A stretch of DNA of 35,010 nt from a virus (Duplodnaviria > Heunggongvirae > Uroviricota > Caudoviricetes). Below the pieces are notes generated by a model that was not told the DNA's origin, did no database searches, and worked only from the letters and a program-made list of their open reading frames with translations. Both the position numbers and the translations under genes were made by a program. Positions within the stretch are counted from its first letter, which is position 1. Each line of letters begins with the position of its first letter. Shown piece after piece: positions 18,349 through 23,385 of this stretch. Location of the stretch: positions 1 through 35,010 of the IMG/VR virus record IMGVR_UViG_3300045988_019110. One strand, written 5' to 3'.

Positions 18349-18564
18349 ATGCAACCATCTGAACTAGGCATCCGTGTAGAGCAACGCCGCAAAGAACTCG
18401 GCATCTCTCAACGCCGTCTGGCGGTCCTGGCTGGCGTTTCCCAGGGCGCGATTAATCAGCTGGCGCTCGGTGTAACTCAGGACGTACGCCCGGCAACACT
18501 GTTCAAGCTGGCGGAAGTGCTGGAAGTAGACGCCAAGTGGCTGGCGTTCGGTGAAGGGGCTTAA
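18349..18564 (+). CDS. XRE-family helix-turn-helix transcriptional regulator (Cro/CI-like)
   Basis: 71 aa; classic HTH GISQRRLAVLAGVSQGAINQL; AGGAG RBS; lone + strand gene between - strand operons. Confidence 0.7.
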   Translation: MQPSELGIRVEQRRKELGISQRRLAVLAGVSQGAINQLALGVTQDVRPATLFKLAEVLEVDAKWLAFGEGA

Positions 18565-20878: not shown

Positions 20879-21112
20879 TTATTCCAGGTCTTCTAAAGTA
20901 GCGGTCATTCCGCGAACTTCAGCGACAGCACTATATTTCCCGCCGACATTTTTCACGACACCGGATTTAACCAACACCTTCAATGACCCTTCAATGATGG
21001 CGGAACTATAGTACTTAAAATAACTGCGGCGCAAGTCGATAACACTGCACGACCCTTTTTTACGTGTTAATGAAACGACCGCCGTAAATACGCGTGACTG
21101 GAACTCGGTCAT
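20879..21112 (-). CDS. hypothetical protein
   Basis: 77-aa ORF translationally coupled to the upstream HTH gene; C-terminus LEDLE. Confidence 0.4.
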   Translation of the reverse strand: MTEFQSRVFTAVVSLTRKKGSCSVIDLRRSYFKYYSSAIIEGSLKVLVKSGVVKNVGGKYSAVAEVRGMTATLEDLE

Positions 21113-21279
21113 TTCACGTTCTCCTTAATCCACGCTTCCACTTTCTCCGGGTCAAACGTACCTGGCTGCCGGCGGCCCATAATGCGGGTACAGCAATCAG
21201 GGAACTTCCCGCTCTTTAACCAGTTATTCAGCGTGCGACGAGTAACCCCGATGCGCTCTGCTACTTCATTCTGCGTCAT
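21109..21279 (-). CDS. AlpA-like helix-turn-helix DNA-binding protein
   Basis: Start re-set to ATG at 21279 with GAGGG RBS; MTQNEVAERIGVTRRTLNNWLKSGKFP HTH; candidate TTGATT-17-TATACT promoter upstream. Confidence 0.5.
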   Translation of the reverse strand: MTQNEVAERIGVTRRTLNNWLKSGKFPDCCTRIMGRRQPGTFDPEKVEAWIKENVK

Positions 21280-21620
21280 TCTCAAACCCTCATTATCAGT
21301 TAACAAAATCGAGTATACATTGCGAATAATGGGAAATCAAACATAATCGCACCTATTGACATTATGAAAATCTTCGTTTAAGGTGCTTCTATATCTTAGT
21401 TACTTTGATTCTTGTTCACCTTGTAAACCCCGCCGAAAACGAGCGCCCAACGCGAAGTGTTAGGCGGCAGTTTACTGAACATAAGAATTATCGTAACTTT
21501 CCTTCCTTAATATCTCCGGTTGCCCTGGGCAAGCTCTATTCTCATCGGCAGCATATCTCTTAAGTAACTGATTTTCTTAATGTACCGTAGATTCACAACC
21601 GTAAAAATGTAACCCTTACC

Positions 21621-21647
21621 GGGCAGGCTTAAGGCCTGCCCTTTAGT
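21621..21647 (+). terminator. terminator-like hairpin inside the 470-bp early intergenic region
   Basis: GGGCAGGC-ttaag-GCCTGCCC 8-bp stem followed by TTTAGTT on the + strand, with no + strand ORF upstream. Confidence 0.4.
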
Positions 21648-21713
21648 TACCAAGTAATAAGAATAAAGGCACAACCCTACCTGAAGAATCACAACGGCAA
21701 TGTAACTATTCTC

Positions 21714-21742
21714 TTGCACACCCCAACATAATAGGATACTAT
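21714..21742 (+). promoter_or_regulatory. sigma70-type promoter (TTGCAC-17-TACTAT) for rightward small-gene operon
   Basis: TTGCAC 21714-21719, 17-nt spacer accccaacataatagga, TACTAT 21737-21742; same element family as 23326, 34832(-) and window start. Confidence 0.45.
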
Positions 21743-21776
21743 TCACTTATCGAAACGAGACATAAGGAATTCAGAA

Positions 21777-21995
21777 ATGAACAAAGCGACCGCAAGCGTA
21801 GTTTCCGCAATCAAAGAAGTTTACGGCATCGATATTTCAGAGCGCGTAATTATCGGGAACAAACGCAACTTCTTTACGTTCGACACCGACGGAATGGATG
21901 AAAATGATTTTAACAACGTACAACGTTTCGCTAACGATAAAGGGCTTCGTAACGAGCCTGCGGGTTACAAGAAATTCGCTATCTACTTTAAATAA
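21777..21995 (+). CDS. hypothetical protein
   Basis: 72-aa ORF with aagga RBS, first gene after promoter. Confidence 0.45.
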   Translation: MNKATASVVSAIKEVYGIDISERVIIGNKRNFFTFDTDGMDENDFNNVQRFANDKGLRNEPAGYKKFAIYFK

Positions 21996-22004
21996 GACAG
22001 AGGA

Positions 22005-23210: not shown

Positions 23211-23240
23211 TACGCTGCTACACAGCAGCGTATCATTTTT
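23211..23240 (+). terminator. rho-independent terminator
   Basis: ACGCTGCT-acac-AGCAGCGT hairpin followed by a T-rich tract (atcatttttctcattttt). Confidence 0.5.
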
Positions 23241-23325
23241 CTCATTTTTGTTCTATTTCACCAAACGCAACAATCGAAGCGACTATTGCAGGAGATGCAA
23301 CAATACAAACACCAATAAAATTTAC

Positions 23326-23354
23326 TTGCACACTTATATAGAATAGGATACTAT
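23326..23354 (+). promoter_or_regulatory. sigma70-type promoter (TTGCAC-17-TACTAT) with perfect GAATAG-N4-CTATTC palindrome
   Basis: TTGCAC 23326-23331; TACTAT 23349-23354; palindrome GAATAGgataCTATTC overlapping the -10. Confidence 0.45.
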
Positions 23355-23385
23355 TCAGTTACACAAACGAGAGGAGAGGCAGAAG

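What the first reader, a model, noticed from the sequence alone, without database searches (positions are those of the whole stretch)
21307..21776. 470-bp non-coding control region with a terminator-like hairpin and no plausible ORF
The gap between the divergent AlpA-like gene and the first rightward gene contains a TTGATT-17-TATACT candidate leftward promoter, a + strand TTGACA, a strong hairpin (GGGCAGGC-ttaag-GCCTGCCC followed by a T-rich tract at 21621-21647) and then the TTGCAC-17-TACTAT promoter. No + strand ORF longer than a few codons precedes the hairpin, so a short non-coding transcript, or an attenuator controlling entry into the rightward operon, is possible. The 79-aa - strand ORF predicted here overlaps the promoter and has no RBS.
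Basis: inference. Interest (0 to 1): 0.45.

Follow-up and report, generated by a model that had tools for sequence, protein, structure and literature searches.

The report
Conserved structured non-coding phage early region
The gap between two divergent gene sets of this E. coli phage encodes no protein but holds a folded, probably RNA, element of unknown function that changes less than the neighbouring genes in about 450 related phages and matches no catalogued RNA family.

Summary
The window is a Kagunavirus-type virulent siphophage.

- **No coding:** no ORF on either strand survives in relatives. The 79-aa minus ORF is intact in 0 of 34 homologues.
- **Conservation:** against Salmonella Jerseyviruses, 21518-21700 is 82-92% identical, while the flanking genes are 65-85% identical.
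- **Promoters:** two back-to-back promoters sit at 21312-21384. The rightward one (invariant TTGACA, 17 bp, TAAGGT) has no gene behind it.
- **SL-A (21398-21498):** a 101-nt hairpin follows. It forms in every homologue although its tip has at least six different sequences. Ten pairs change on both sides.
- **Rest of the region:** a pyrimidine tract, small hairpins, and a 91-nt stem-loop (SL-B, 21582-21672).
- **The "terminator":** this hairpin is the tip of SL-B. Its U tract is weak, and sister modules in related phages lack one.

Rfam, tRNA, E. coli and bacterial-genome searches found nothing.

My best reading is an immediate-early structured non-coding RNA. It is either released as a discrete RNA or serves as a leader. 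A DNA-level role, such as a replication origin or priming hairpins, is not excluded. No transcript data exist.

The parts
21109..21279 (-). HTH_17 (excisionase/AlpA-like) regulator gene, 56 aa. It is the first gene of the leftward replication operon.
   Evidence: Pfam HTH_17 E 2e-07. PHROG 66. A 171-nt CDS is annotated in K1ind1 and UTEC10. A GAGGG Shine-Dalgarno lies before ATG 21279. The HTH gene is one of 4 early genes in the K1B4 RNA-seq study (PMC12645636).
21312..21340 (-). Leftward promoter P_L, TTGATT-17-TATACT.
   Evidence: Scan. Conserved in relatives. Annotated as a promoter in PVP-SE2.
21356..21384 (+). Rightward promoter P_R1: TTGACA (21356-61), 17 bp, TAAGGT (21379-84). The predicted start is near 21391.
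   Evidence: Read from the sequence. The CACCTATTGACATT block is invariant and TAAG(G/T)T is kept in 35 distinct homologues. The -10 matches only 3 of 6 and was not called by the scan. RP180 has TTGACT-17-TAAGCT at the same place.
21398..21498 (+). SL-A, a 101-nt imperfect hairpin. Its base is AGTTAC/GTAACT. A 4-nt CCTT bulge is conserved at 21419-21422. The tip (21429-21467) is hypervariable.
   Evidence: All 25 distinct homologues give the same fold independently. z-scores are -3 to -8. Outer helices are 99.6% paired. In the model-based alignment, 10 pairs change on both sides; covariation is 0.182 against 0.102 in shuffles (0/500) and at most 0.069 when slid.
21499..21518 (+). Unpaired pyrimidine-rich linker, TTCCTTCCTTAATATCTCC.
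   Evidence: Unpaired in all folds. Nearly invariant, with only C/T exchanges.
21519..21552 (+). SL-2, a small hairpin (GTTGCC...GGCAGC).
   Evidence: RNAalifold consensus. Changes are one-sided only and keep G-U or Watson-Crick pairs. Support is weak.
21560..21580 (+). SL-3, a small hairpin (TTAAG...CTTAA).
   Evidence: RNAalifold consensus. One pair alternates U-A/U-G. Support is weak.
21582..21672 (+). SL-B, a 91-nt stem-loop module. It closes with GTACC/GGCAC, then has GATT/GAAT and GTAAC (21609-13)/GTTAC (21646-50). It begins with the signature TGCCGTAGATTC (TACCGTAGATTC in this window).
   Evidence: RNAalifold consensus. The sister module B' has the same architecture. The segment is 82-92% identical between genera. 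The lower helices are invariant, so they could not be tested.
21621..21648 (+). Apex hairpin of SL-B, GGGCAGGC-TTAAG-GCCTGCCC, with tail TTTAGTT. This is the terminator-like hairpin of the finding.
   Evidence: Two pairs show compensatory changes: 21625/21637 is A-U 31, G-C 1, G-U 1, A-C 1; 21628/21634 is C-G 28, U-A 5.
21685..21706 (+). R2, a direct repeat of the start of SL-B (AGAATCACAACGGCAATGTAAC against AGATTCACAACCGTAAAAATGTAAC at 21589-21613).
   Evidence: D1. Conserved in relatives.
21712..21747 (+). Class-1 phage promoter: TTGCAC (21714-19), 17 bp, TACTAT (21737-42). The palindrome AATAG-N4-CTATT (21730-43) overlaps it.
   Evidence: Repeat family with copies at 23324-59 (+), 34833-34798 (-) and 24-1 (-). 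The same motif was found by PHIRE in phage fBC-Eco01 (PMC9825357).
21777..21995 (+). First rightward gene, 72 aa.
   Evidence: PHROG 7673. Annotated in UTEC10.
21507..21746 (-). 79-aa minus-strand ORF. It is spurious.
   Evidence: Intact in 0 of 34 homologues. Automatic annotations of this stretch disagree between records.

Best explanation
The gap is the immediate-early control region of the phage.

Two back-to-back sigma-70 promoters fire outwards. The leftward one serves the HTH and helicase-primase operon. The rightward one (start near 21391) has no gene behind it. It transcribes about 255-285 nt of non-coding RNA. This RNA folds into a 101-nt hairpin (SL-A), an unpaired pyrimidine tract, two small hairpins, and a 91-nt stem-loop (SL-B). 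The G+C-rich tip of SL-B is the 'terminator-like' hairpin.

I think part of the polymerases stop after that tip, or the RNA is trimmed back to SL-B. Either way a discrete, stable RNA would build up from the first minutes of infection and act as RNA by binding a protein or another RNA. The remaining polymerases would read on into the next promoter and gene cluster.

Shown here:
- absence of coding;
- conservation above that of the neighbouring genes;
- the SL-A fold with compensatory changes;
- the promoter and hairpin motifs and their conservation.

Inferred:
- that the region is transcribed from the plus strand;
- where the RNA ends;
- that it acts in trans;
- what it binds.
For: - No conserved ORF on either strand, and 1-nt indels lie inside conserved blocks.
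- Nucleotide identity to Salmonella phages Ent2, Ent1 and PVP-SE2: helicase-primase 65-66%, 77-aa gene 70-71%, HTH gene 83-84%, 21518-21584 89-90%, 21585-21700 82-92%. The helicase-primase protein is only about 64.5% identical.
- The region was found in 448 phage records, and 291 of them cover at least 80% of it.
- SL-A has the same topology in all distinct homologues, with z-scores of -3 to -8.
- SL-A covariation: 10 pairs change on both sides, and the covariation score is above all 500 shuffles and all slid controls. Outer helices are 99.6% paired.
- The apex hairpin has two compensatory pairs.
- The -35 block is invariant with a 17-bp spacer and sits about 40 nt upstream of SL-A.
- Unrelated replacement cassettes in Bas71-type phages and RP180 again have a promoter followed by a long G+C hairpin.
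- The hairpin is the top-ranked terminator-like site in 13.7 kb. The layout 'hairpin, then about 100 nt, then class-1 promoter' recurs at 23211-32 and 23325.
- In every variant the first gene keeps its own class-1 promoter. P_R1 is therefore not needed to express the genes.
- The plus-strand consensus fold is more stable than the minus-strand one: -43.7 against -38.1 kcal/mol. The z-scores are -3.19 and -2.22.
Against: - There are no transcript data.
- The -10 of P_R1 matches the consensus at 3 of 6 positions and was not called by the scan.
- The U tract is weak (UUU-AG-UU). The sister modules B', B'' and the RP180 module have none, so termination is not the conserved property of the module.
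- Phages that carry only B' would read through.
- Wobble-pair asymmetry does not decide the strand. Each strand finds its own set of G-U pairs.
- No antisense target longer than 12 nt exists in the window, and E. coli genomes hold no match.
- The lower helices of SL-B never vary, so nothing supports or contradicts them.
- Motif enrichment (GTAACT 5 against 0.34 expected; CACAAC 3 against 0.15) and the position beside the replication genes also fit a DNA-level role.
Confidence: 0.45

Rival explanations
1. Purely cis-acting leader or attenuator. P_R1 transcripts are meant to reach the rightward genes, which include the lysis and virion genes further downstream. The stem-loops would act only on that transcript. 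Possible actions are partial termination at the SL-B tip, shielding an untranslated leader from Rho, RNase III processing of SL-A, or a put-like change of RNA polymerase.
For: - The region lies directly between an early promoter and a long one-directional gene cluster.
- The U tract is weak, and sister modules lack one, so read-through is likely.
- SL-A is a long imperfect duplex of the kind RNase III cuts (established knowledge, not tested here).
- P_L and P_R1 lack the AATAG-N4-CTATT palindrome that marks the other promoters, so P_R1 could stay active when those are regulated.
Against: - Every variant keeps a class-1 promoter between the stem-loops and the first gene.
- No antiterminator-like protein was found among 10 neighbouring ORFs.
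- There is no boxA-like site.
- The very high sequence conservation of unpaired stretches is more than a Rho shield would need.
Confidence: 0.25
2. DNA-level element. The region would be the replication origin or a priming/loading site, and/or a cluster of regulator-binding sites. The hairpins would form in single-stranded DNA and be recognised by the phage helicase-primase. P_R1 would activate or prime the origin.
For: - The region adjoins the replication operon. Its helicase is AAA_25 (RepA-like) with an uncharacterised N-terminal half.
- The cumulative GC skew minimum lies at 21-22 kb.
- Short motifs are enriched: GTACT-type GTAACT 5 against 0.34 expected, and CACAAC 3 against 0.15.
- A direct repeat R1/R2 flanks the hairpin.
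- The pattern of conserved hairpin base and free tip resembles single-strand initiation signals (from memory, RSF1010 ssiA/ssiB).
- AT-rich stretches of 30-37% GC are present.
- The strand could not be settled from wobble pairs.
Against: - There are no iterons of origin type, no DnaA box and no IHF site.
- The GC skew minimum coincides with the switch of gene orientation, so it does not inform.
- Four of the six GTAAC copies are simply the two strands of two helices.
- All hairpins sit on one strand behind an invariant promoter.
- The plus strand has G-U pairs in SL-A and SL-2.
Confidence: 0.2
3. An unannotated small protein gene. Candidates are the 79-aa or 28-aa minus ORFs and the 52-aa plus ORF.
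For: - The ORFs exist.
- Some automatic annotations call genes here.
Against: - ORF integrity in 34 homologues: 79 aa 0, 52 aa 2, 26 aa 3, 28 aa 13 (Kagunavirus only).
- 1-nt indels lie in conserved blocks.
- The annotated ORFs differ from record to record.
Confidence: 0.02
4. A spacer with promoters only. The hairpins would be chance features.
For: Counts of consensus promoter and terminator hits are close to those in shuffles.
Against: - Conservation exceeds that of the coding neighbours.
- SL-A covaries.
- z-scores reach -8.
Confidence: 0.01

Closest known systems
Lambda P_R' - 6S RNA - t_R' unit, and the StxS small RNA made from it in Shiga-toxin phages (from memory)
   Same: A phage promoter without its own gene makes a non-coding RNA of about 200 nt. 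The RNA ends at a hairpin upstream of a one-directional cluster that holds lysis and virion genes. In Stx phages the short RNA also acts in trans.
   Different: - No sequence or Rfam similarity.
- A further promoter follows the hairpin directly.
- No Q-like protein was found among 10 neighbouring ORFs.
- The phage is virulent.
- The RNA is far more structured.
HK022 put RNA (from memory)
   Same: A structured RNA encoded just downstream of early promoters. It needs no ORF and acts on the transcribing polymerase.
   Different: - put is about 70 nt with two short stem-loops. Here there is a 101-nt and a 91-nt stem-loop plus small ones.
- No sequence similarity.
- No test of antitermination is possible with these tools.
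RNase III processing hairpins of the T7 early region and of the lambda N leader (from memory)
   Same: Long imperfect hairpins in untranslated early phage RNA, conserved as structure.
   Different: - SL-A is longer and has a freely evolving tip.
- Cleavage is untested.
- No gene lies directly downstream of SL-A.
Single-strand initiation hairpins (ssiA/ssiB) of RSF1010 oriV, used with an AAA_25 RepA helicase and a dedicated primase (from memory)
   Same: Hairpins whose base is conserved and whose upper part is free to vary, next to genes for an AAA_25 helicase-primase.
   Different: - The ssi hairpins are about 40 nt, lie on opposite strands and are flanked by iterons.
- Here the hairpins are 91-101 nt, all on one strand, behind a promoter, and there are no iterons.
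Rfam Hrs12 (RF02630), the best sub-threshold Rfam match
   Same: The terminal G+C hairpin with a UUAA-type loop aligns.
   Different: The match scores 23.8 bits against a gathering score of 70, with E 0.18. Only the hairpin matches. This is a chance match.

Membership tests
Any Rfam 15 family (4227 models) | Score at or above the family's gathering threshold | tested here: not met
   There were 0 hits in the whole window. With E up to 10 on 21200-21850, the best hit was Hrs12 at 23.8 bits against 70.
tRNA / tmRNA | ARAGORN detection | tested here: not met
   0 genes.
Intrinsic (Rho-independent) terminator | Short G+C-rich stem-loop | tested here: met
   9 pairs, 7 of them G-C, -17.1 kcal/mol.
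Intrinsic (Rho-independent) terminator | Run of U directly after the stem | tested here: inconclusive
   The tail is UUUAGUUA: 3 leading U, and 5 U in 8. This passes the lenient scan but is weak.
Intrinsic (Rho-independent) terminator | U tract kept in the equivalent modules of related phages | tested here: not met
   The leading U run is 2 in B', 0 in B'' and 0 in the RP180 module.
Sigma-70 promoter (P_R1) | -35 TTGACA and a 16-18 bp spacer | tested here: met
   The -35 matches 6 of 6 with a 17-bp spacer, and is invariant in 35 homologues.
Sigma-70 promoter (P_R1) | -10 hexamer close to TATAAT | tested here: inconclusive
   TAAGGT / TAAGTT / TAAGCT match 3 of 6, with A at position 2 and T at position 6. 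The hexamer is conserved but was not called by the scan.
Hfq-type base-pairing small RNA | Terminator with a long U tail, and a seed with identifiable targets | tested here: not met
   The U tail is short. No complement longer than 12 nt exists in the window. No E. coli match was found. Hfq binding is not testable with these tools.
Lambda-type nut site | boxA consensus GCTCTT(T/A)A next to a hairpin | tested here: not met
   There were only 1-mismatch hits, at unrelated places.
Iteron-type replication origin | Three or more direct repeats of about 17-22 bp | tested here: not met
   Only one two-copy 16-nt repeat and short 5-6-nt motifs are present.
Iteron-type replication origin | DnaA box or IHF site, and an AT-rich unwinding stretch | tested here: inconclusive
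   There is no exact DnaA box or IHF site. Stretches of 30-37% GC are present.
Protein-coding gene | Reading frame kept in relatives | tested here: not met
   No ORF is kept across both genera.
Structured RNA (generic) | Compensatory base changes in predicted helices, above controls | tested here: met
   For SL-A, 10 pairs and 91 cells change on both sides, and the score is above 500/500 shuffles and all slid controls. For the apex hairpin, 2 pairs covary. SL-2, SL-3 and the lower part of SL-B show one-sided changes or none.

The most novel reading that the evidence does not exclude
This is an undescribed family of phage early RNA. It is a multi-domain non-coding RNA of about 280 nt, built from exchangeable stem-loop cassettes (A1/A2/A3 and B/B'/B''). 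It would be made from the first minutes of infection by all Kagunavirus and Jerseyvirus phages. It would do something that proteins do in other phages, for example priming or marking the replication origin for the RepA-like helicase-primase, or titrating a host RNA-binding or defence factor.
Probability: 0.35. Interest if true: 0.7.

Novelty: new member of a known kind. Interest (0 to 1): 0.55.

Why it matters
Kagunavirus and Jerseyvirus phages are among the most often isolated E. coli and Salmonella phages. They are used in phage-therapy and biocontrol products, yet their gene-expression programme is almost unknown.

In the stretch compared here, from the helicase-primase gene to the first rightward gene, the most conserved DNA between the two genera is not a gene. 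It is this folded non-coding region.

If it is an RNA, it adds a new phage RNA family with a clear experimental handle:
- a promoter that can be knocked out;
- a 101-nt hairpin with natural compensatory variants;
- swap-able modules.

If it is the origin, it defines the replicator of a whole subfamily.

Either way, genome annotations that place hypothetical proteins here should be corrected. Engineering of these phages should avoid the region.

Tried and rejected
- **Rfam and tRNA:** Rfam at gathering and at permissive thresholds and tRNA/tmRNA found nothing.
- **Small-protein reading:** rejected by ORF integrity in 34 homologues.
- **Antisense targets:** the longest complements in the 35-kb window are 11-12 nt, which is chance level.
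- **Host similarity or complementarity:** no match in 5,426 E. coli genomes with megablast or blastn at E up to 10.
- **Bacterial genomes:** 11 hits, all in unrelated taxa, consistent with chance for the pattern.
- **More distant relatives:** nhmmer with the whole-region profile gave no hit at E up to 1 in SP-031, Tsm2, EP23 or RP180. Model R1 found SL-A only in A1-type phages.
- **Strand assignment from wobble pairs and energies:** inconclusive.
- **boxA, DnaA box, IHF site:** absent.
- **P4 iteron:** the exact P4 type I iteron octamer TGTTCACC is at 21413-20. It is a single copy and the helicase is AAA_25 only, so I treat it as chance.
- **A second origin candidate:** the gap downstream of the helicase-primase gene holds an HTH_3 gene, not an origin-like stretch.
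- **Column-wise pair counting of B against B':** MAFFT shifts the 3' arm by one column, so only a by-eye comparison was possible.
- **Literature:** nothing describes this region. The genome-reduction paper concerns a Skatevirus, not this group.

Full report
**What the window is.** The 551 bases around the finding match 448 phage records. The best matches are Kagunavirus phages of E. coli at 90-95% identity, and 329 records (nearly all of them Salmonella phages, where classified Jerseyvirus) match at 60-80%. These are virulent siphoviruses of about 42-45 kb in the subfamily Guernseyvirinae. In K1ind1 the genes left of the region run leftward and encode the HTH protein, a small protein, the helicase-primase, an exonuclease and the DNA polymerase. 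The genes right of it run rightward and encode many small proteins, then holins and endolysin, then terminase and virion proteins.

**Checking the observation.** There are three corrections.
- The HTH gene starts at ATG 21279, preceded by GAGGG, as in the 171-nt CDS annotated in relatives. The gap is therefore 21280-21776.
- Plus-strand ORFs of 26 and 52 aa do precede the hairpin.
- The gene is HTH_17/excisionase-like.

Consensus promoter and terminator hits alone are close to what shuffles give. The case therefore rests on comparison with relatives.

**Not coding.** I aligned 35 distinct homologues, taken from annotated phages, IMG/VR and metagenomes. No ORF of the window is kept in them. The 79-aa minus ORF is intact in 0 of 34, the 52-aa plus ORF in 2, the 26-aa plus ORF in 3, and a 28-aa minus ORF in 13, all from one genus. 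Single-base indels sit inside otherwise conserved blocks. Automatic annotations place different ORFs here in different records.

**Under selection.** Identity was measured against Salmonella phages Ent2, Ent1 and PVP-SE2.

| Segment | Nucleotide identity |
|---|---|
| Helicase-primase gene | 65-66% |
| 77-aa gene | 70-71% |
| HTH gene | 83-84% |
| 21391-21517 | 65% |
| 21518-21584 | 89-90% |
| 21585-21700 | 82-92% |

The helicase-primase protein is only about 64.5% identical. In this stretch, from the helicase-primase gene to 21700, non-coding DNA is the best conserved.

**Anatomy.**
1. *Divergent promoters.* Two back-to-back promoters have their -35 boxes 15 bp apart. They are P_L (21340->21312) and P_R1: TTGACA 21356-61, 17 bp, TAAGGT 21379-84. 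The block CACCTATTGACATT never varies. The -10 of P_R1 matches only 3 of 6, although it keeps the A at position 2 and the T at position 6. RP180 has TTGACT-17-TAAGCT at the same place.
2. *SL-A, 21398-21498.* All 25 distinct sequences fold on their own into the same long hairpin, with z-scores of -3 to -8. The base (AGUUAC/GUAACU) and a 4-nt bulge (CCUU) are conserved. The apical 40 nt exists in at least six sequence versions, even among near-identical Kagunaviruses, and is always a hairpin.
   - On the plain sequence alignment the outer helices are 99.6% paired. One pair runs A-U (13), G-U (10), G-C (2).
   - I built a covariance model and realigned 33 distinct sequences. There, 10 pairs and 91 cells change on both sides. 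The covariation score is 0.182, against 0.102 in shuffles (0 of 500 reach it) and at most 0.069 for slid partners. That alignment is fitted to the model, so it leans towards the structure. The unfitted results agree with it.
3. *Linker and small hairpins.* A nearly invariant unpaired pyrimidine tract lies at 21499-21518. Two small hairpins follow, at 21519-52 and 21560-80. Their only variation is one-sided and keeps pairing as G-U on the plus strand.
The apex has two compensatory pairs. The lower helices never vary, which says nothing either way.
5. *Repeat and next promoter.* A repeat of the start of SL-B lies at 21685-21706. Then comes the TTGCAC-17-TACTAT promoter.

**Modularity.**
- Bas71-type phages, including K1B4, replace everything from the HTH start to 21572 with an unrelated cassette. 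That cassette again has a promoter (TTGAAA-18-TATAAT) and a long G+C hairpin. RP180 has a third version.
- Some Salmonella phages replace SL-B with a sister module B', or follow SL-B with B'. B' starts with the same signature (UGCCG-A-GAUUC), closes with the same UGCC/GGCA and AUUC/GAAU helices, and has a different G+C apex. L042 has yet another version.
- None of these other apex hairpins is followed by a U tract.

The conserved property is therefore the stem-loop, not termination.

**Is the hairpin a terminator?** It is the best terminator-like site in 13.7 kb. A second hairpin at 23211-32 precedes the second class-1 promoter at 23325 in the same way. The tail, however, is UUU-AG-UU. I conclude that it probably stops some polymerases in this phage but is not a dedicated terminator.

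**Which strand, and RNA or DNA?** The promoter and the hairpin tail point to the plus strand.
- The plus-strand consensus fold is more stable: -43.7 against -38.1 kcal/mol. It also has the better z-score, -3.19 against -2.22.
- Counting G-U against A-C does not decide the question. Each strand finds its own G-U set. In the Salmonella versions of SL-A the minus strand folds about as well. The fitted alignment mixes misaligned cells.
- A hairpin in single-stranded DNA would give the same covariation.

**Searches for a known identity or a target.**
- Rfam found nothing and there are no tRNAs.
- No antisense target exists in the window.
- E. coli genomes hold no match, and bacterial genomes gave no genuine hit.
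- More distant relatives gave no profile hit.
- There is no boxA, DnaA box or IHF site.
- No antiterminator or RNA-binding protein was found among ten neighbouring ORFs.
- The literature I could search does not mention the region. One paper found the class-1 promoter motif with PHIRE (PMC9825357). One RNA-seq study lists the HTH gene among four early genes but reports genes only (PMC12645636).

**Verdict.** The most likely reading (0.45) is an immediate-early, rightward, structured non-coding RNA of about 255-285 nt that accumulates as a discrete species and acts as RNA, with some read-through. Two readings remain open. The other is a DNA-level element such as the origin or a priming site for the RepA-like helicase-primase (0.20). 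That last reading is supported by position, motif enrichment and the GC skew minimum. It is weakened by the lack of iterons and by the confounding switch of gene orientation. A small protein gene and chance are excluded for practical purposes. The element belongs to no described family. As a kind of thing, a phage early non-coding structured RNA or leader, it is familiar.

Noticed in passing
window 21712-21747 (+), 23324-23359 (+), 34833-34798 (-), 24-1 (-); about 11850-11815, 16195-16160 and 18295-18260 (-): Two promoter classes share the palindrome AATAG-N4-CTATT. In class 1 (CTTGCAYACCCCAAYATAATAGGRTACTATTC) it overlaps the -10. In class 2 (TTGACA-17-TATAGT, all leftward) it lies in the spacer. 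It looks like one operator regulon. P_L and P_R1 lack it.
   Followed up: partly
window 18349-18564 (+), with palindromes at 18259-75 and 18304-20: A lone plus-strand 71-aa HTH_3 (Cro/CI-type) gene sits against the leftward replication operon. Two copies of the palindrome lie just upstream. It is a candidate regulator of the promoter regulon. UTEC10 annotates it as a transcriptional repressor.
   Followed up: partly
window 18235-43 (-), 21753-61, 23365-73, 23796-804 (+): A shared leader motif, AAACGAGA(G/C), lies just before the ribosome-binding sites of genes that follow these promoters. There are 4 copies against 0.65 expected. In addition, 31 nt around two start codons are 87% identical (23358-88 and 23789-819).
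   Followed up: partly
window 21413-21420: This is the exact octamer TGTTCACC, which I recall as the type I iteron of satellite phage P4. It is a single copy inside the 5' arm of SL-A. The helicase-primase shows only AAA_25. It is probably chance.
   Followed up: partly
window 21391-21712: GTAACT/AGTTAC occurs 5 times against 0.34 expected, and CACAAC 3 times against 0.15. Four of the six GTAAC copies form two helices (the SL-A base and the lower part of SL-B). The CACAAC copies are unexplained.
   Followed up: partly
L014, L021, L032, L075 (Bas71 type); L062 (RP180); L006, L011, L034, L044 (B' only); L042 (B''): The region is a mosaic of exchangeable cassettes with sharp junctions, at the HTH start codon and near window 21572. 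In Bas76 and LF7074P3 the N-terminal 315-354 residues of the helicase-primase find no tblastn match.
   Followed up: partly
window 23211-23232 (+): A second hairpin with a T-rich tail (TACGCTGCT-ACAC-AGCAGCGTA, then TCATTTTT) lies about 100 nt before the second class-1 promoter. It repeats the hairpin-then-promoter layout.
   Followed up: no
L005, L006, L030 (Salmonella SL-A): The Salmonella version of SL-A carries a CCCGC insert in its 3' arm. This insert can pair with GCGGG of the apical hairpin, giving an alternative fold that Kagunavirus lacks.
   Followed up: no
window 21777-21995 (+): The first rightward gene matches PHROG 7673, labelled 'internal head protein' (E 6.5e-29), although it sits in the early small-gene cluster. 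It is absent from many relatives, which start with a different gene (MFKKGQ...).
   Followed up: no
window 21000-22000: The cumulative GC skew reaches its minimum here. This coincides with the switch of gene orientation.
   Followed up: no
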